The notes under the pieces are model-generated. The model was not told the origin of the DNA and did not search any database. It worked only from the letters and a program-made list of their open reading frames with translations. Positions 207 through 11,433 of a stretch of 64,000 bases of DNA are shown one piece after another (the first letter of the stretch is position 1; the number at the start of each line of letters is the position of its first letter). The DNA comes from a virus, in UHGV virus genome UHGV-0291501; one strand, given 5' to 3'. A program made the translations under genes and the position numbers.

Positions 207-350
207 CTACCTGCACAATTCTAAAATGATTTTTCTTGCCCGACCTGAGCGGGGTCTGCACGTTTTGAAAATGATTTTTCTATCCGGCGATGAGATTTTT
301 TGGGATATCTGTACAGACCCCTACAGATACCTGCACAAATTGAAAATGAA
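207..350. repeat. Three spaced direct repeats, core CTGCAC-N8/9-AAAATGA (iteron-like)
   Basis: Copies at about 211-236, 257-282 and 331-350, plus 8-bp palindrome ctgtacag at about 308-315. ORF 184..369 here starts at TTG and its repetitive KMIFL peptide just reflects the DNA repeats. Confidence 0.45.
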
Positions 351-351
351 A

Positions 352-398
352 AAGGCCGCCTTACCTTAAATTTTTCAATGGGTTAGGCAGCCTTCTTA
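352..398 (-). terminator. Imperfect long hairpin followed by U-rich tract on minus strand (candidate terminator)
   Basis: Arms ggccgccttacc / gggttaggcagcc with about 14-nt loop; lies just downstream of minus-strand gene ending at 428. Confidence 0.3.
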
Positions 399-427
399 GA
401 TGATTTGTAGATACTATGAAGTGCTAA

Positions 428-1207
428 TCAGCTTATGAATTTGAACTTTTTAGAATACAGCAAGTAGTGAACTTCATCCTGATTTGTTGTGTAGATGTAT
501 GCTGCTGGGTAGTTATTAAAGAACACCCCTTCATATCTTCCAAACGGGTCAACTGGGAACATTTCACTGTTACACATACCCATCTCACTAACCAGAGGGT
601 AACTAACCTCAACCTTGCCATCAACAAGCTGATAGAGGGTAACTTGATTAGTCTTCCCGTCACTTAGCACGACACCATCATAGAATTGTGGTGCTGAGGT
701 AGCATACTTAGGGGTAACTACACTTGCCATTGCTTCATCATAGACGTAGAGGTACACATCAACGTTATACATAACACTATTAATGAGGCTTTTCACAGCT
801 TGTGCATCTAAACCGCCTATACCTGCCCCAATCATGGGTAAACCAATCTTACGAATGTTGTGCAGCCAGCAAAATTTACGGAGTTTTTCTAGTGACTCCA
901 CTAAGTATCGGTATGATGCACACTTCCCAACATCCAACTGTGTATATAGGTTAAAAATGTAACCATACTCCGTTCGAGCATGTGACACCTCACCAACCAT
1001 CTGGTATCCGATATCATGAGCACTGTAGCCAAACTTTTTATGGAATTTCCGGTCAGCTTCTTCAGCTTTTGGGAAAATCTTAGCAATTTTTTGAGCGATT
1101 CCAGCACCCATGAGGTTACGACAGTTGCAACCATGAGCAATTAACTCAATATCTGTGTTTTTGAAGGCAGCCAGTAAGTTACCTTTTACAACTTTTACAA
1201 TACCCAT
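428..1207 (-). CDS. Macro-domain protein (TARG1/OARD1/DarG-like N-terminal domain) with uncharacterised C-terminal extension
   Basis: N-terminal motif HGCNCRNLMGAGIAQKIAK resembles the TARG1-type macro signature; remaining ~110 aa unrecognised. Confidence 0.5.
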   Translation of the reverse strand: MGIVKVVKGNLLAAFKNTDIELIAHGCNCRNLMGAGIAQKIAKIFPKAEEADRKFHKKFGYSAHDIGYQMVGEVSHARTEYGYIFNLYTQLDVGKCASYRYLVESLEKLRKFCWLHNIRKIGLPMIGAGIGGLDAQAVKSLINSVMYNVDVYLYVYDEAMASVVTPKYATSAPQFYDGVVLSDGKTNQVTLYQLVDGKVEVSYPLVSEMGMCNSEMFPVDPFGRYEGVFFNNYPAAYIYTTNQDEVHYLLYSKKFKFIS

Positions 1208-1408
1208 TTAACATCTCTCCCAAGATTCTTTATCTTCTGAAGGTTTTACACGTTGTCCTTCGTGGTCTACCCAGATACACCCGCAACCTTCACAGATTAC
1301 TGGCATTGCATAGCCAGCTTTAAAGTCATCTTCAGTGATAAGACCTTTTAAGTCACCTGTATCACGTCCGAACATTTCGATAGAACAGTCTTTGCAGAAG
1401 TCAGCCAT
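1208..1408 (-). CDS. Small Cys-rich protein, probable zinc-binding, hypothetical
   Basis: 66 aa with CKDC ... CEGCGC pattern; tightly packed in the minus-strand operon. Confidence 0.45.
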   Translation of the reverse strand: MADFCKDCSIEMFGRDTGDLKGLITEDDFKAGYAMPVICEGCGCIWVDHEGQRVKPSEDKESWERC

Positions 1409-2780: not shown

Positions 2781-3260
2781 TTAACCGAGGACTTTAGCAA
2801 GGATATTCGCAGCCATCGAAGAAGCTTTTGCAGCAGCAACTACGCCAGCTTTGACAGTGCTATCCTTAATAGCAGATACCGTTGCAGCATCAGTAAAGAG
2901 ATAAGTGATTGTTTTGGAACCACTTGTAAAGGAAAGCATAAGAGTAGTTTCCAGATTGAAAGAGCGATACGGAGCACCTTCTTTAACGATACCTTCAGCA
3001 CCTAACTCTGAAGCCTTACCCATATCATAGATAGTCATCAGGTTTTCTTTGTGTGCAGTCGTTGAACCAACACCTTTTACGTGCTTCTTAACGTTCAACA
3101 ATGCACGATATTCGCGAATGCTACCATCAGCTTTTACATTAACAGCACGGAAAATTTTACCTTCAAAGTTACCTTGAATCATTTTACGAACTACTTCAGA
3201 TTTGTTTGCCGTATCGTCCAGTGCTACCGTAATGATATTGTTCATAAGTTCTTCTCTCAA
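2781..3260 (-). CDS. Hypothetical protein
   Basis: 159-aa ORF; an alternative start at 3245 (MNNIIT) has a better purine-rich RBS. Confidence 0.45.
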   Translation of the reverse strand: MREELMNNIITVALDDTANKSEVVRKMIQGNFEGKIFRAVNVKADGSIREYRALLNVKKHVKGVGSTTAHKENLMTIYDMGKASELGAEGIVKEGAPYRSFNLETTLMLSFTSGSKTITYLFTDAATVSAIKDSTVKAGVVAAAKASSMAANILAKVLG

Positions 3261-3952
3261 TGTTTAACTAACATAGTTTTAATGTGTGGAAGGATTCTGT
3301 TTACCTTCTGAACATTCTTCTCTGTATCTTCTATAAAGCATACTATATTAAAGTAAGGAAGAATGCAAGACTGAATCATCCTCACTTTCAAACTTTCTGC
3401 ACTTATAGAGTTAGTTCCAAAACCACGCATAAAAAGCAAGTAATCATGCTCTATATTGTGCCTTAAAAAAATCTCAGTAGGTATTCTCTGAGATTCACCT
3501 CTTGCTGTCAAGAGTCCAACTGCTGCATGATTTGCAATTGCATCAATAATGTTGAAAACATATGTTGGCTTTGCTCTTACAGAATCAAGAAGATTAGTGT
3601 ACTGTGAGAATGACCCATCAGTCAATTCCGTTGAGCAATCTTCGTGATTAAAATTTGTAAGAACACCATCAATATCTGCTAAGATGAGGTTACCTTTTTC
3701 TACAAGGTCTTTATTGACTATCACTAAACTATCACGCCTTACACCTATAGTTTGTCCAGTCTCTTTGTCCACAACGTTCACAATGGGTTCTGATGTGTGG
3801 AACTCTTCAAGTGAACATACAACCTCTCTTGCAGTGTCTTCAAAATCTCTGCACTGTTCTGGAGTCCATACACAGGAATCAAGACCTAACTCATGAGGAT
3901 GCAAGTCATAAGCGTGGCACAGGACTTCATCAGACTTTCTTAATTTTTTCAT
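3257..3952 (-). CDS. HAD-superfamily phosphatase-like protein (possibly 5-prime(3-prime)-deoxyribonucleotidase-like)
   Basis: Motif ILADIDGVLTNF (HAD motif I DxDG) and LLTARGES (motif II-like); N-terminal ~80 aa unrecognised. Confidence 0.4.
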   Translation of the reverse strand: MKKLRKSDEVLCHAYDLHPHELGLDSCVWTPEQCRDFEDTAREVVCSLEEFHTSEPIVNVVDKETGQTIGVRRDSLVIVNKDLVEKGNLILADIDGVLTNFNHEDCSTELTDGSFSQYTNLLDSVRAKPTYVFNIIDAIANHAAVGLLTARGESQRIPTEIFLRHNIEHDYLLFMRGFGTNSISAESLKVRMIQSCILPYFNIVCFIEDTEKNVQKVNRILPHIKTMLVKH

Positions 3953-8709: not shown

Positions 8710-10491
8710 TTAAAGCTGCTTGTCAATATTATTTCGAATATCACCAAGAGTTGTGTAGCCGAACTGCTCAGAGTCACTAAAGACTAGACGTAAAGCACAA
8801 GCTGGATGTTCAAGTGCATCTGCAAAGCTCTGGAACCCATAGCCATCTACAGCTTTCAGATTTTCACCATCCCACATAGGTGCTACACCACCAAAAGCAG
8901 ACTTCTTAACACCACTATCTGTTTTAGGGTCTTTTGCAAGCATAATCTCTTTACCACCAATGCTTGCAAGGGTTGCTTTGACAGCAAATGCAAAGGTGTC
9001 ACGAGTCATGTACTGGTAAGTGTAAGAACCTACACCAAACACTACGTTAGAGCTTGCAAAACCCATTTCATACAAACGCTTCAGTATTTCATTTGCACGT
9101 TCCAACGTGATAGAGTCGCCATAAATAAGTCCAATATGCTCATCCAGTACCTTAAAACCTTTAGAGTTAATAGTTCCCCCAAAGATGTTATACAGTGTCT
9201 TGATAGCTCCATCAATCTCAGCTACAGGACGTGTTACAACGTTTGCAGAACCAACCATATAAGCATTTTTCAACATCACTGTATCAGCAACTTCAAAGTC
9301 TTCTCTGTCAACAACCATCTCGTAGCCTTCTGACAGTAGCCATCCAGCAATACCATAGTTGATGTTCTCAAGCTTCATGTTCAGAACAGCATTCAACATT
9401 GTGTCACTGGCTTCCAGCTTGCTTAGGTGCTCGTAATAAGCCTTCTTAGCACATTCTAAGTGGATTGCTTTATAACCTGTGACAATATGTACAGGGTCTC
9501 CAGAGTCAGGGCGAATTACCAGTTTGCCATCACGTTCCATAATTTCTTTACGAAGTGCTGGTAAGATTTCTGACACAGTTCTCCAGAAGTTATAAGTATC
9601 TGAAACAATGCTTGCAATACCTGTTGGGTAAGTTTCTGTTAAGAAACGACGGAAGGTTTGTAACTCACCTTTAAAGCGTCTTTCTTCTTCAATCAACTCA
9701 TTACCACCTTCCCAAGCAATGTTTGCACACATTACAGAGTGCTCAGTGGCTGGTACAGAACTACCAATATCAGAGATTGGGTAGGACTGTCCATAGATTC
9801 GTTTAGCCGTGTATACAGCAGGGAAGCTATCAGTCCCTTTAAAGCTGGTTAAGTGACCTACAGCGTTAAATGCGTCATCAGTAAAGCCGGACATACCACG
9901 CATAGCAAAATCATGGCACTGATAAGGTAAATGTAAGTCATTGTCACAAGTAAGGTCAGCCCACTTCTTACAGATGCGTTTGTAATGCAATGCAATAGTT
10001 GCAATGGTGCAAGCCTTCCAAATTTCAGCAGAGAAAGCATCTTCCAGATAACCTGCTACCCAATGAAAACCTGAAACAGTGTTCTGAAAGACAATCATCG
10101 GGACACGCATTGGAACAACTGTGCCTTCTTCTACAGCGTATACTTCAACTGGTAGATAACCTAAGTCGTGAAGTGCTTCCCAATGCTCTCGACCGATAGC
10201 ATCTTTACCCAGAACACCATTCATGACTTCTAAGATTTCATCAATGGCTTCTTTTTTATCACGTTCAAAGAAAGTGGCATTCCAGTGGTCTATCAAGTAA
10301 TCTTTAACAAAACGTTGAATACCAAAAGCCACTACACCGTCAATTGCTAAGGGGCTGTTAAACCATTTGTCGCTACGTGGTGTCAGATTGAACATCAAGT
10401 ACTCTGTTGCACTAGGGTACTGGTAAACATGACCAGATTTGTAAGCATCTGCGTTTAAACCTGCTGGTACTGCATAAAGTGATTTAGTCAT
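8710..10491 (-). CDS. Nicotinamide phosphoribosyltransferase family protein (NadV-like; may be the NARP1 enzyme Namat)
   Basis: 593 aa; N-terminal DAYKSGHVYQYP matches the NAMPT signature; adjacent to a Prs-like gene. Confidence 0.8.
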   Translation of the reverse strand: MTKSLYAVPAGLNADAYKSGHVYQYPSATEYLMFNLTPRSDKWFNSPLAIDGVVAFGIQRFVKDYLIDHWNATFFERDKKEAIDEILEVMNGVLGKDAIGREHWEALHDLGYLPVEVYAVEEGTVVPMRVPMIVFQNTVSGFHWVAGYLEDAFSAEIWKACTIATIALHYKRICKKWADLTCDNDLHLPYQCHDFAMRGMSGFTDDAFNAVGHLTSFKGTDSFPAVYTAKRIYGQSYPISDIGSSVPATEHSVMCANIAWEGGNELIEEERRFKGELQTFRRFLTETYPTGIASIVSDTYNFWRTVSEILPALRKEIMERDGKLVIRPDSGDPVHIVTGYKAIHLECAKKAYYEHLSKLEASDTMLNAVLNMKLENINYGIAGWLLSEGYEMVVDREDFEVADTVMLKNAYMVGSANVVTRPVAEIDGAIKTLYNIFGGTINSKGFKVLDEHIGLIYGDSITLERANEILKRLYEMGFASSNVVFGVGSYTYQYMTRDTFAFAVKATLASIGGKEIMLAKDPKTDSGVKKSAFGGVAPMWDGENLKAVDGYGFQSFADALEHPACALRLVFSDSEQFGYTTLGDIRNNIDKQL

Positions 10492-10502
10492 CTTTTAATC
10501 TC

Positions 10503-10527
10503 TCTCAAAATGGGGCTTTCAAGCCCC
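10503..10527 (-). terminator. Rho-independent terminator (weak U tract)
   Basis: Hairpin ggggct-ttca-agcccc followed on minus strand by AUUUUGAGA. Confidence 0.45.
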
Positions 10528-10536
10528 TATAAACTT

Positions 10537-11433
10537 TCAATCAAGGTTTGCTACAGTAACTTGACCATAATGTGTTAAGCCACGGTCTTTAGCTTCGCCT
10601 AAAGAGTTTGTAGTGTAAATATGGTCGATACCGTTGTCAAGAAGGTTTTCAACACCTTTAGAGAAGATACCATGTGTTACATAAAGCTCTACACGTTTTG
10701 CACCTGCTTCACGTAGGTGTTTAGCTGCCTCTACGAAGGTTCGACCACCATCACAGATATCATCAAGAATCATGACGGTTTTATCGGTCAAATCAACATC
10801 GTCAAGGATTCGCATACCAGTGATTTCTCCAGTCTTAAGATTGCGCACCTTAGACATTGTGATATATGGTTTATCCACCTCTTTAGCAGTCTCTGCAATC
10901 TTCTTAGCAGCACCTGCATCTGGGGCTACTAAGTAATCAATCAGTGGGTCATTTGCGTAGTGAACTGCAATCTCCTTTTGAGGAATACTCTGGAAGCAGT
11001 TAAACAGGTTATCTGGAACGTAACTGTGAGGGTCAACTGCACAGACTGCACCAAATCCCATTGCATTTACCTGTTTAGCAAAAACCTTTAAAGCTGCTGC
11101 GTCGCCTTTAAACATGTGACGGTCATAACGTGCATTTGGTAAGTAGTAAAAGATGACAGTCTTTAAAGCATAATCATGAGGAATTAAATCATCAATTGCT
11201 TCTTTAGCAAGTGCCACAGCAAACAATGTATCCTTATCATAACCTTTTACAATCATAATCACATTGTTGATGGATGATGCTGCATAAGCAGTGAAATCAA
11301 CAAACTCTGGCGAAAAGTGTCCACCAATCTCACCAGAAGGAAATTGGATGATGTTAAACTCTTCTTCATGAGTTCCTTTAGTTGGTGAATGAACTGTAAC
11401 ACGGATAGATGTTTTCATAGTTTTCTCTCTCAA
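10537..11433 (-). CDS. Ribose-phosphate pyrophosphokinase family protein (Prs-like; may be the NARP1 enzyme Adps)
   Basis: 298 aa; PRPP-binding-type motif MILDDICDGGRT; directly upstream of the NAMPT-like gene in the same operon. Confidence 0.75.
   Translation of the reverse strand: MREKTMKTSIRVTVHSPTKGTHEEEFNIIQFPSGEIGGHFSPEFVDFTAYAASSINNVIMIVKGYDKDTLFAVALAKEAIDDLIPHDYALKTVIFYYLPNARYDRHMFKGDAAALKVFAKQVNAMGFGAVCAVDPHSYVPDNLFNCFQSIPQKEIAVHYANDPLIDYLVAPDAGAAKKIAETAKEVDKPYITMSKVRNLKTGEITGMRILDDVDLTDKTVMILDDICDGGRTFVEAAKHLREAGAKRVELYVTHGIFSKGVENLLDNGIDHIYTTNSLGEAKDRGLTHYGQVTVANLD

What the first reader, a model, noticed from the sequence alone, without database searches (positions are those of the whole stretch)
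428..1207. TARG1/DarG-type macro-domain protein with an unrecognised C-terminal half
The HGCNC ... MGAGIA pattern is typical of the ADP-ribose-removing macro subfamily (TARG1, DarG antitoxin). A phage-encoded version could reverse host ADP-ribosylation of phage DNA, RNA or protein (DarT-type or ribosyltransferase defences) or release ADP-ribose to feed the NARP-type pathway 8 kb away. The extra ~110 aa is unassigned.
Basis: partly seen in the sequence, partly recalled or inferred. Interest (0 to 1): 0.6.

Follow-up and report, generated by a model that had tools for sequence, protein, structure and literature searches.

The report
Phage ADP-ribose-removing enzyme with extra domain
A Felix-O1-like phage gene encodes an ADP-ribose-processing "macro" enzyme of the family that phage T4 uses to escape a bacterial DNA-tagging defence, fused to a faster-evolving extra domain with no recognisable relatives; the enzyme half is a known kind, and the extra half is unexplained.

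Summary
ORF 428..1207 (minus strand, 259 aa) has a macro domain at residues 1-155: Pfam Macro scores above its cut-off, and a confident AlphaFold2 model is closest to Mtb DarG, BT1257, Poa1p and TARG1. An unassigned, well-folded domain of about 100 aa follows.

The window is a Felixounavirus. The macro half belongs to phrog_335, as do T4 Tk.4/AdfM (anti-DarTG2, genetic evidence) and the Adpp type. Adpp is an ADPR-1''-phosphate phosphatase that feeds NARP1. The window's NARP1 operon, 7.5 kb away, has a Namat 99% identical to the Bas63 enzyme.

The protein is not strictly TARG1/DarG-type. The catalytic Lys is an invariant Gln (Q90) and the TARG1 Asp is Gly, as in SCO6735, which still cleaves thymidine-linked ADP-ribose on DNA.

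The C-terminal domain has no Pfam, PDB or viral-model match. It occurs only in this fusion family among 1.84 billion representatives. It is under purifying selection but diverges 2-3 times faster than the macro half.

The whole gene is a swapped cassette between otherwise ~95% identical genomes.

Most likely it is a counter-defence hydrolase acting at ribose C1'', with DarT2-modified DNA as first candidate substrate and ADPR-1''-P as second. The accessory domain's role is unknown. It is a new variant of a known kind, of moderate interest.

The parts
428..1207 (-). Complete ORF, 259 aa: macro domain plus orphan C-terminal domain. The stop codon is at 428-430.
   Evidence: ORF list and sequence. 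phrog_335 matches over residues 1-258. The AF2 model has pLDDT 93.2.
743..1207 (-). Macro domain, residues 1-155, of the ALC1-like/TARG1-DarG-Poa1p class (Gln variant).
1121..1135 (-). H25-G-C-N28-C motif. H25 and N28 are invariant in 30 homologues, in T4 AdfM and in the Adpp type.
   Evidence: Alignments. N28 aligns with a Ser of TARG1 (my numbering S35). PMC9411070 states that SCO6735 Asn27 corresponds to a TARG1 Ser, so the N28 = Asn27 equivalence is inferred. H25 aligns with the Poa1p His that is mutated in PDB 6lfs.
1094..1111 (-). M33-G-A-G-I-A38, the first glycine-rich ADP-ribose-binding loop.
   Evidence: Conserved in alignments. It aligns with RMGAGIA of TARG1.
938..952 (-). N86-L-Y-T-Q90, invariant. 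Q90 occupies the position of the catalytic Lys of TARG1 (K84) and DarG (K80).
   Evidence: phmmer and profile alignments to TARG1. The motif is invariant. SCO6735 Gln85 is equivalent to K84/K80 according to PMC9411070.
812..838 (-). P124-M-I-G-A-G-I-G-G132, the second glycine-rich (diphosphate) loop. G131 aligns with TARG1 D125. It is followed by L-D-A instead of the x-x-Trp found in single-domain relatives.
431..742 (-). Residues 156-259: a linker helix plus a beta-rich orphan domain (six strands, then a C-terminal helix).
674..691 (-). P173-Q-F-Y-D-G178, the only conserved anchor shared by all C-terminal classes. P173 and G178 are invariant.
   Evidence: Alignment A2.
344..397 (-). Hairpin followed by a U-run just after the stop codon. 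This is probably an intrinsic terminator ending the transcription unit.
   Evidence: RNA fold of -24.8 kcal/mol, z -3.56, with 0 of 200 shuffles folding as well.
257..1207 (.). Allelic cassette: the whole gene plus about 170 bp downstream. It is 40-70% identical to the common Felixounavirus allele, while both flanks are mostly 87-100% identical.
   Evidence: Sliding-window identity against typing phage 11. The protein is >=95% identical in 13 phage records and below 60% in all others.
8710..11433 (-). Context, not part of the gene: the NARP1 operon (Namat 8710-10491, Adps 10537-11433) on the same strand. It is a possible metabolic partner if the macro domain acts on ADPR-1''-phosphate.
   Evidence: PHROG and Pfam hits. 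The proteins are 99% and 80% identical to Bas63 genes 80 and 79. Bas63 NARP1 was characterised in 10.1101/2024.02.11.579819.

Best explanation
The gene encodes a two-domain protein in a same-strand gene block that also carries nrdDG, NARP1 and rIIA/B. I take this block to be early genes by analogy with T4; I did not test that.

Macro half. Residues 1-155 form a macro domain of the TARG1/DarG/Poa1p class. It belongs to the phage family (phrog_335) that contains T4 Tk.4/AdfM. It should bind ADP-ribose in its two glycine-rich loops and hydrolyse whatever is attached to C1'' of the distal ribose. Its active site resembles that of SCO6735: N28 is expected to hold the invariant Q90 (in place of the TARG1/DarG lysine) against the ribose ring oxygen, with water as the nucleophile.

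Most likely substrate. This is thymidine-linked ADP-ribose placed on single-stranded phage DNA by DarT2-type toxins. The protein would then be an orphan-antitoxin-like counter-defence enzyme of the AdfM type.

C-terminal half. Residues ~170-259 form a constrained, beta-rich domain of unrecognised fold, found only in this fusion. It probably packs beside the second glycine loop; this is inferred from the high pTM and from loss of the neighbouring Trp. I think it most likely acts as a specificity or partner-binding module. It could, for instance, hold the toxin or the modified substrate, much as DarG's unrelated C-terminal domain holds DarT.

Shown versus inferred. Shown: fold, family membership, active-site residues, purifying selection and the cassette-like allele exchange. 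Inferred: the substrate, the anti-defence role and every function proposed for the C-terminal domain.
For: Fold and class:
- Macro fold and class membership.
- The PADLOC DarG model matches at 57.8 bits, more than for T4 AdfM (36.0) or the Adpp type (46.1).

Family:
- Same PHROG as T4 Tk.4.
- 35% identity, 78 bits to T4 Tk.4, which shares HGCNC, NLYTQ and IGAGIG.
- tk.4 is the single Tn-seq hit on a DarTG2 host, and its knockout sensitises T4 (10.1101/2025.11.20.689424).
- PhiKZ gp104, a phage macro protein, removes DarT2 ADP-ribose from DNA in vitro (PMC13309987).

Active site:
- A Gln-type active site is competent on dT-ADPr DNA. Q85A and N27S inactivate SCO6735 (PMC9411070).
- Q90 and N28 are invariant in all 30 homologues.

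Relative similarity:
- T4-like macros score 77-97 bits against this protein, while the NARP1-embedded Adpp type scores 53-57 bits.
- With an Adpp-type query, Ounavirinae proteins score lower (60-69 bits) than the listed Vequintavirinae-like, Pakpunavirus and most T4-like hits.

C-terminal domain:
- It is confidently folded.
- It is under purifying selection, pN/pS 0.12.
- It is restricted to this fusion.
- It evolves 2-3 times faster than the macro half.
- It has no consistent charge, with pI from 4.9 to 9.8.

Locus:
- The gene behaves as an exchangeable cassette in ~95% identical genomes, as counter-defence genes often do.
Against: - No experiment exists on any Felixounavirus macro protein. 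PhageMaP on Bas63 does not mention it.
- T4 AdfM's enzymology is itself inferred, not shown.
- AdfM and the Adpp type are as similar to each other (74 bits) as either is to this protein, so sequence does not separate the two activities.
- The N-terminal 55 residues are most similar to the phosphatase Poa1p.
- The phage carries NARP1, which would make an ADPR-1''-P phosphatase useful.
- The C-terminal domain shows no sequence or fold similarity to the DarG toxin-binding domain, so its proposed role rests on analogy and evolutionary rate only.
Confidence: 0.5

Rival explanations
1. It is an Adpp-type ADP-ribose-1''-phosphate phosphatase. It would convert the ADPR-1''-P made by RES-domain (aRES) NAD+ phosphorolysis into ADPR. 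The phage's own NARP1 (Adps + Namat, 7.5 kb upstream on the same strand) would then rebuild NAD+. This does not exclude the DNA-hydrolase role, because both substrates carry a leaving group on C1''.
For: - Adpp from Vibrio phage Gary is a Poa1p-like macro domain that does this in vitro and in vivo (10.64898/2026.01.28.702374).
- The Adpp-type protein of Direpillow8 is in the same PHROG and shares H25, N28 and Q90.
- The window carries a NARP1 operon whose Namat is 99% identical to the characterised Bas63 enzyme.
- The macro-NARP1 co-occurrence and synteny are conserved in all other two-domain classes examined.
- The N-terminal 55 residues are closest to Poa1p.
- Public records annotate the gene as 'phosphatase'.
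Against: - The gene is never adjacent to NARP1. In Bas63, 14 annotated genes, including rIIA/B, lie between them, whereas Adpp was defined by lying within two genes.
- It is less similar to the Adpp type (57 bits) than to T4-like AdfM (78-97 bits).
- It lacks the Adpp-type Arg in loop 1 (MGRGIA) and the His-rich insertion after the Gln.
- T4 has the homologue but, to my knowledge, no NARP1. I did not check this here.
Confidence: 0.25
2. It removes ADP-ribose from another target, or degrades an ADP-ribose-derived molecule. Candidates are mRNA or protein modified by host ADP-ribosyltransferase defences, or ADPR-based immune signals. The C-terminal domain would select the target.
For: - Macro domains of this class act on varied substrates. 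TARG1 acts on Glu/Asp-linked protein ADP-ribose, and SCO6735 acts on both DNA and protein.
- The variable C-terminal classes would fit varied targets.
- Macro domains also bind His-ADPR in type II Thoeris ThsA.
Against: - No homologue of this phage family has been shown to do this.
- The TARG1 Lys/Asp dyad used for protein de-modification is absent.
Confidence: 0.15
3. It is a non-catalytic ADP-ribose binder or sponge, or a direct inhibitor of a toxin. The Lys-to-Gln change would have abolished hydrolysis, and the C-terminal domain would do the binding.
For: - The catalytic Lys and Asp of TARG1 are missing.
- Catalytically dead SCO6735, DarG and TARG1 still inhibit DarT by interaction.
- One public record calls it a 'high-affinity ADP-ribose binding module'.
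Against: - Gln at this position is catalytically required and sufficient in SCO6735.
- Strict invariance of H25, N28 and Q90 and both glycine loops across classes only 41-53% identical points to an enzyme.
Confidence: 0.07

Closest known systems
T4 Tk.4 = AdfM (anti-DarT factor Macrodomain), bioRxiv 10.1101/2025.11.20.689424
   Same: Same PHROG (335). It is 35% identical over 150 aa, with the same HGCNC, NLYTQ and IGAGIG motifs, including Gln at the DarG-Lys position. It is also a phage orphan with no adjacent toxin.
   Different: Tk.4 is a single domain of 155 aa and keeps the Trp after glycine loop 2. The window protein has lost that Trp and carries a C-terminal domain of about 100 aa. Only Tk.4 has genetic evidence.
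Adpp (NARP1-associated ADPR-1''-P phosphatase; Vibrio phage Gary; type represented here by Direpillow8 gp175)
   Same: Same PHROG. It shares H, N and Q and both glycine loops. The host phage carries NARP1.
   Different: Identity is only 29% (57 bits). Adpp lies between Adps and Namat, is a single domain, and has Arg in loop 1 and a His-rich insertion after the Gln. Here the gene is 7.5 kb from NARP1.
DarG2 antitoxin (Mtb and T. aquaticus DarG; PDB 5m3i, 5m31/5m3e)
   Different: The catalytic Lys80 is replaced by Gln. The C-terminal halves are unrelated in sequence: DarG models match only positions 2-150, and the score is 56.7 bits against an equivalog cut-off of 250. There is no DarT neighbour.
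SCO6735 (S. coelicolor; PDB 5e3b) and BT1257 (PDB 2afc/2fg1)
   Different: These are bacterial single-domain proteins. Sequence similarity is weak (E 8e-4 with the single sequence, 8e-11 with the profile). The SCO6735-specific Val25 position was not assessed.
PhiKZ gp104 'AdfM' (chimallivirus DarG2-like macro; PMC13309987)
   Same: A phage-encoded orphan macro domain that counters DarTG2 by removing ADP-ribose from DNA.
   Different: It retains the DarG-type Lys (K78), is imported into the phage nucleus and is a single domain. I did not compare it directly.
Human TARG1/OARD1 and yeast Poa1p
   Same: These are the best PDB sequence hits: TARG1 at E 1e-16 with the profile, and Poa1p over the N-terminal 55 aa. 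They belong to the same structural class.
   Different: The TARG1 K84/D125 dyad is absent. Poa1p has no Gln at the NLYTQ position (from my recollection of the Poa1p sequence, not from a tool result). Both are single-domain eukaryotic proteins.

Membership tests
Macro domain superfamily (Pfam PF01661) | Profile match above the curated gathering score | tested here: met
   28.9 bits against a cut-off of 22, E 1.2e-6, residues 25-140.
Macro domain superfamily (Pfam PF01661) | Macro fold | tested here: met
ALC1-like class (TARG1 / DarG / Poa1p / SCO6735) | Nearest structural and sequence neighbours belong to this class rather than to the MacroD, PARG or viral X-domain classes | tested here: met
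TARG1-type hydrolase | Catalytic Lys84/Asp125 dyad | tested here: not met
   K84 aligns with Q90 and D125 aligns with G131, in both the single-sequence and profile alignments.
DarG antitoxin (NCBIfam NF048014 equivalog; PADLOC PDLC02990) | Full-length model match above the equivalog cut-off | tested here: not met
   56.7 bits against a cut-off of 250. Only model positions 2-153 of 338 are matched. PADLOC matches positions 2-150 of 329.
DarG antitoxin | Catalytic Lys80 in the macro domain | tested here: not met
   Gln at the equivalent position (with the equivalence taken from PMC9411070).
DarG antitoxin | C-terminal DarT-binding domain | tested here: not met
DarG antitoxin | Adjacent darT toxin gene | tested here: not met
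   The neighbours are small phage ORFs, a PNKP-like gene and rIIA/B. No ART-like Pfam or PHROG hit was found among the flanking ORFs scanned.
SCO6735-type (Gln) dT-ADPr-DNA hydrolase | Gln at the Lys84/Lys80 position plus an Asn that positions it, and a conserved Gly in loop 2 | tested here: met
   Q90, N28 and G127-G132 are invariant or nearly so. Their roles are taken from PMC9411070.
SCO6735-type (Gln) dT-ADPr-DNA hydrolase | Hydrolysis of thymidine-linked ADP-ribose on ssDNA | not testable with these tools
   This needs a gel-shift or LC-MS assay on a DarT2-modified oligonucleotide.
Phage AdfM (T4 Tk.4 family) | Homology to T4 Tk.4 with a shared active-site signature | tested here: met
   35% identity, E 6e-24. 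Same phrog_335. Shared motifs.
Phage AdfM (T4 Tk.4 family) | Confers resistance to DarTG2 | not testable with these tools
   This needs a phage knockout or complementation on DarTG2-expressing hosts.
Adpp / NARP1-AP | Macro gene inside or within two genes of the Adps-Namat operon | tested here: not met
   The gene lies 7.5 kb from Namat. The syntenic Bas63 record has 14 annotated genes between them. The same spacing is seen in three other classes.
Adpp / NARP1-AP | Homology to Adpp-type macro proteins | tested here: met
   29% identity, E 1e-15 to Direpillow8 gp175. Same PHROG. This is weaker than the match to T4-like proteins.
Adpp / NARP1-AP | ADPR-1''-phosphate phosphatase activity | not testable with these tools
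   This needs LC-MS with purified ADPR-1''-P.

The most novel reading that the evidence does not exclude
The C-terminal domain is a new fold that acts as an interchangeable specificity module. Each discrete allele class would recognise a different host ADP-ribosyltransferase (a DarT2 variant or other toxin) or a different modified target. Cassette exchange of the whole gene among Ounavirinae would then retune the phage's counter-defence range. On this reading the protein is a convergent re-invention of the two-part DarG logic (eraser plus toxin clamp), built from an unrelated second domain.
Probability: 0.2. Interest if true: 0.6.

Novelty: new variant of a known kind. Interest (0 to 1): 0.4.

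Why it matters
Phage macrodomains have only just been recognised as counter-defence enzymes: AdfM against DarTG2, and Adpp against aRES through NARP1. The Felixounavirus version is carried by hundreds of sequenced coliphages and Salmonella phages, including therapy candidates and the model phage Bas63. It has not been tested.

It sits in a phage that also carries the founding NARP1 operon. That makes it a natural test of whether one macro active site serves both DNA de-ADP-ribosylation and ADPR-1''-P salvage.

Its orphan, faster-evolving C-terminal domain and its cassette-like allele classes offer a handle on how specificity evolves in ADP-ribose-centred conflicts. If the domain only stabilises the enzyme, the finding is an ordinary family member.

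Tried and rejected
1. Homology of the C-terminal half.
- The word-indexed search with the C-terminal half alone returned one near-identical fragment.
- Pfam on 17 members gave only noise.
- The exhaustive profile search of 1.84e9 representatives found only the fusion family. It also returned LapA adhesins and PQQ beta-propellers matched in many short stretches, which I reject as beta-repeat artefacts.

2. Fold of the C-terminal half.
- BFVD returned only the same family.
- AFDB50 was not available.

3. A DarG-like toxin-binding domain. The DarG HMMs do not reach the C-terminal half.

4. A generic DNA-binding role for the C-terminal domain. The pI ranges from 4.9 to 9.8 across classes, so this is not supported.

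5. Ongoing positive selection in the C-terminal domain. pN/pS is about 0.12 within the allele class. The divergence between classes is old and is moved around by recombination.

6. A conserved partner gene. The abutting Cys-rich 66-aa ORF (1208-1408) is 98% identical in Bas63 but is not conserved in other classes.

7. Separating AdfM from Adpp by sequence. The three references are roughly equidistant, so there is only a weak lean towards AdfM.

8. Literature. PhageMaP on Bas63 does not mention the gene. The Poa1p structure paper is not in the library.

Full report
**Observation.** The window has an ORF from ATG at 1207 to a stop at 428-430 on the minus strand, encoding 259 aa. Two further motifs are NLYTQ (86-90) and PMIGAGIGG (124-132).

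The macro assignment is not a chance match:
- Pfam Macro scores 28.9 bits against a gathering score of 22.
- PHROG 335 ('phosphatase') matches residues 1-258 at 288 bits.
- The best solved relatives by sequence are TARG1/OARD1 (5e-8), T. aquaticus DarG macro (6e-7), Poa1p, Mtb DarG and SCO6735.
- A profile of 30 homologues raises these to 1e-16 (TARG1) and 5e-12 (DarG).

**Source and public annotation.** The window is a Felixounavirus (Felix-O1-like, Ounavirinae). It is 98% identical over 6 kb to Escherichia phage ECML-1 and 94-96% identical to many Salmonella and E. coli phages. Public records already call this gene 'macro domain protein', 'phosphatase' or 'Poa1p-like high-affinity ADP-ribose binding module'. 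The macro assignment is therefore not new.

**Active site.** Single-sequence and profile alignments to TARG1 both place the invariant Q90 (NLYTQ) at the catalytic K84. They place G131 at D125 and N28 at a TARG1 serine. DarG K80 is the equivalent of TARG1 K84 (PMC9411070). The protein therefore lacks the residues that define TARG1- and DarG-type catalysis.

The same paper shows that SCO6735 has Gln85 at this position, held by Asn27. It still cleaves thymidine-linked ADP-ribose from ssDNA, and Q85A and N27S inactivate it. The Gln type distinguishes SCO6735/ALC1 homologues from TARG1/DarG homologues.

H25, N28, Q90 and both glycine loops are invariant or nearly so in 30 homologues. They are also present in T4 Tk.4 and in an Adpp-type protein. 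The strict conservation across proteins only 41-53% identical argues for an enzyme rather than a mere binder.

**What is known about the family.** Three recent studies bear on it.
- A Tn-seq study of T4 found tk.4 to be the only gene conditionally required on a DarTG2 host. A clean knockout sensitised T4, and the gene was renamed adfM. Removal of ADP-ribose from DNA was inferred, not shown (10.1101/2025.11.20.689424).
- PhiKZ gp104, also named AdfM, removes DarT2-placed ADP-ribose from DNA in vitro. It retains the DarG-type Asn and Lys (PMC13309987).
- A Poa1p-like macro protein, Adpp, lies between Adps and Namat in about 15% of NARP1 operons. It converts ADPR-1''-phosphate, the product of the RES-domain defence aRES, into ADPR so that NARP1 can rebuild NAD+ (10.64898/2026.01.28.702374).

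Vibrio phage Direpillow8 gp175 lies in exactly that three-gene arrangement, and I used it as the Adpp-type reference. T4 Tk.4, gp175 and the window protein all fall in phrog_335.

Pairwise BLASTP gives:

| Pair | Bits | Identity |
|---|---|---|
| window vs T4 Tk.4 | 78 | 35% |
| window vs Adpp type | 57 | 29% |
| T4 Tk.4 vs Adpp type | 74 | 34% |

. The two characterised activities are thus not cleanly separated by sequence. This makes chemical sense, since both substrates carry a leaving group on ribose C1''; that point is my inference.

The lean is towards AdfM, for these reasons:
- T4-like macros score 77-97 bits against the window protein, whereas Thalassavirus Adpp-type proteins score 53-56 bits.
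- With an Adpp-type query, Ounavirinae proteins score 60-69 bits, below the listed Vequintavirinae-like, Pakpunavirus and most T4-like hits.
- The window protein lacks the Adpp-type Arg in loop 1 and the His-rich insertion after the Gln.
- The DarG HMM scores it higher (57.8 bits) than either reference.

Against that lean, the first 55 residues are most like Poa1p, and the phage has NARP1.

**Neighbourhood.** The gene is the last in a same-strand block: nrdD, nrdG, Adps-like (10537-11433), Namat-like (8710-10491), rIIA, rIIB, an SLT-like protein, a HAD/PNKP-like protein and several small ORFs. A strong hairpin followed by a U-run comes straight after the stop (z -3.56).

NARP1 was discovered in Bas63, a Felixounavirus. 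The window's Namat is 99% and its Adps 80% identical to Bas63 genes 80 and 79. Bas63 has a 261-aa 'putative phosphatase' (bas63_0095) at the syntenic position.

However, the macro gene is not part of that operon. The same separation (Namat, rIIA, rIIB..., PNKP-like..., macro) is seen in three other two-domain classes from metagenomes.

**C-terminal domain.** Residues ~156-259 fold confidently both in the full model and on their own, with a core pLDDT around 90. The layout is six strands followed by a helix.

Searches for relatives found nothing outside the family:
- no Pfam family;
- in BFVD, only the same protein from phage SUSP2;
- no match to the second half of the DarG models;
- in a profile search of 1.84 billion representatives, only this macro fusion plus spurious hits to LapA and PQQ repeat proteins.

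At least five classes of the domain exist. They share only a P-x-x-(F/Y)-D-G anchor.

| Comparison | Macro half identity | C-terminal half identity |
|---|---|---|
| Between classes | 41-53% | 9-28% |
| Within a class (example 1) | 92% | 65% |
| Within a class (example 2) | 77% | 40% |

. Charge is not conserved, with pI from 4.9 to 9.8.

Within the window's own class both halves are under purifying selection: pN/pS is about 0.07 for the macro half and 0.12 for the C-terminal half. So the domain is functional, less constrained than the enzyme, and not currently under positive selection.

All 21 proteins with a C-terminal extension have replaced a Trp that follows glycine loop 2. That Trp is present in TARG1, T4 AdfM, the Adpp type and 9 of 10 single-domain homologues. 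This may mark where the extra domain packs, or it may simply mark the clade. I could not inspect coordinates.

**Allelic cassette.** Against typing phage 11, identity is mostly 87-98% upstream. It falls at the start codon (1207) to 40-70% across the gene and about 170 bp beyond the stop, then returns to 90-100% from about position 256.

Only 13 of roughly 257 phage records with a full-length homologue carry the window's allele (>=95% identity). All others are below 60%. The C-terminal half alone detects only 16 records. This is gene-sized replacement between otherwise near-identical genomes, a pattern common for accessory and counter-defence genes.

**Verdict.**
The structural class, the unassigned half and the kinds of function proposed are right. 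The TARG1/DarG catalytic residues are absent: this is a Gln-type site like SCO6735 and T4 AdfM. The protein also fails the DarG membership tests.
- Main rival (about 0.25, and not exclusive): an Adpp-like ADPR-1''-P phosphatase serving the phage's NARP1.
- The finding is a new variant of a known kind. The macro half is an ordinary member of a family that has just been characterised. The orphan C-terminal domain and its allele classes are the only new elements, and their function remains inferred.

Noticed in passing
window 8710-11433 (minus strand): This is a NARP1 operon. Namat is 99% identical to the characterised Bas63 enzyme. Adps is mosaic: its first ~185 residues are only about 70% identical to Bas63 Adps, while the last ~110 are nearly identical. 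That suggests recombination inside the gene.
   Followed up: partly
window 211-369: There are three direct copies of a ~39-nt element (CTGCAC...AAAATGA...), spaced 45 and 75 nt apart, in the intergenic region downstream of the macro gene. The distal edge of the swapped cassette (~256) coincides with the start of the second copy. They may be regulatory repeats or recombination sites.
   Followed up: partly
window 1208-1408 (minus strand): A 66-aa Cys-rich ORF (CxxC ... CxxCxC; phrog_2210, unknown function) has a stop codon that abuts the macro start codon (TAA-ATG). This suggests translational coupling. It is 98% identical in Bas63 but is not conserved next to the macro gene in other Ounavirinae-like classes.
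   Followed up: yes
window 3257-3952 (minus strand): This protein is annotated 'polynucleotide kinase' (phrog_3970) but has no Pfam hit here, and only weak HAD_PNKP hits in homologous contigs. It is consistently syntenic with the macro gene across classes. It may be a phosphatase-only PNKP relative.
   Followed up: no
P0033 (338 aa, metagenomic): This macro protein belongs to the same subfamily: it has the G-L-D signature and has lost the Trp. It carries a different, 161-aa C-terminal extension. The macro core may therefore have accepted more than one kind of accessory domain.
   Followed up: no
OL631478.1 (phage ECML-1), the closest genome to the window: No feature is annotated over the C-terminal half of this ORF in that record ('none' under the match). 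The ORF is intact in the window and is annotated in sister phages.
   Followed up: no
P0018: A two-domain homologue is labelled 'Listeria phage LPML1' (87-kb contig). Its relative P0020 lies in Felix-O1-like synteny (Namat-rIIA-rIIB-...-macro). The host label looks doubtful for an Ounavirinae-like genome.
   Followed up: no
L011 14715-15056 and L012 6544-6885 (contigs carrying P0020): An Ocr-like gene (PF08684, anti-restriction DNA mimic) lies about 4 kb downstream of the macro gene in this class. This fits the region being rich in counter-defence genes.
   Followed up: no
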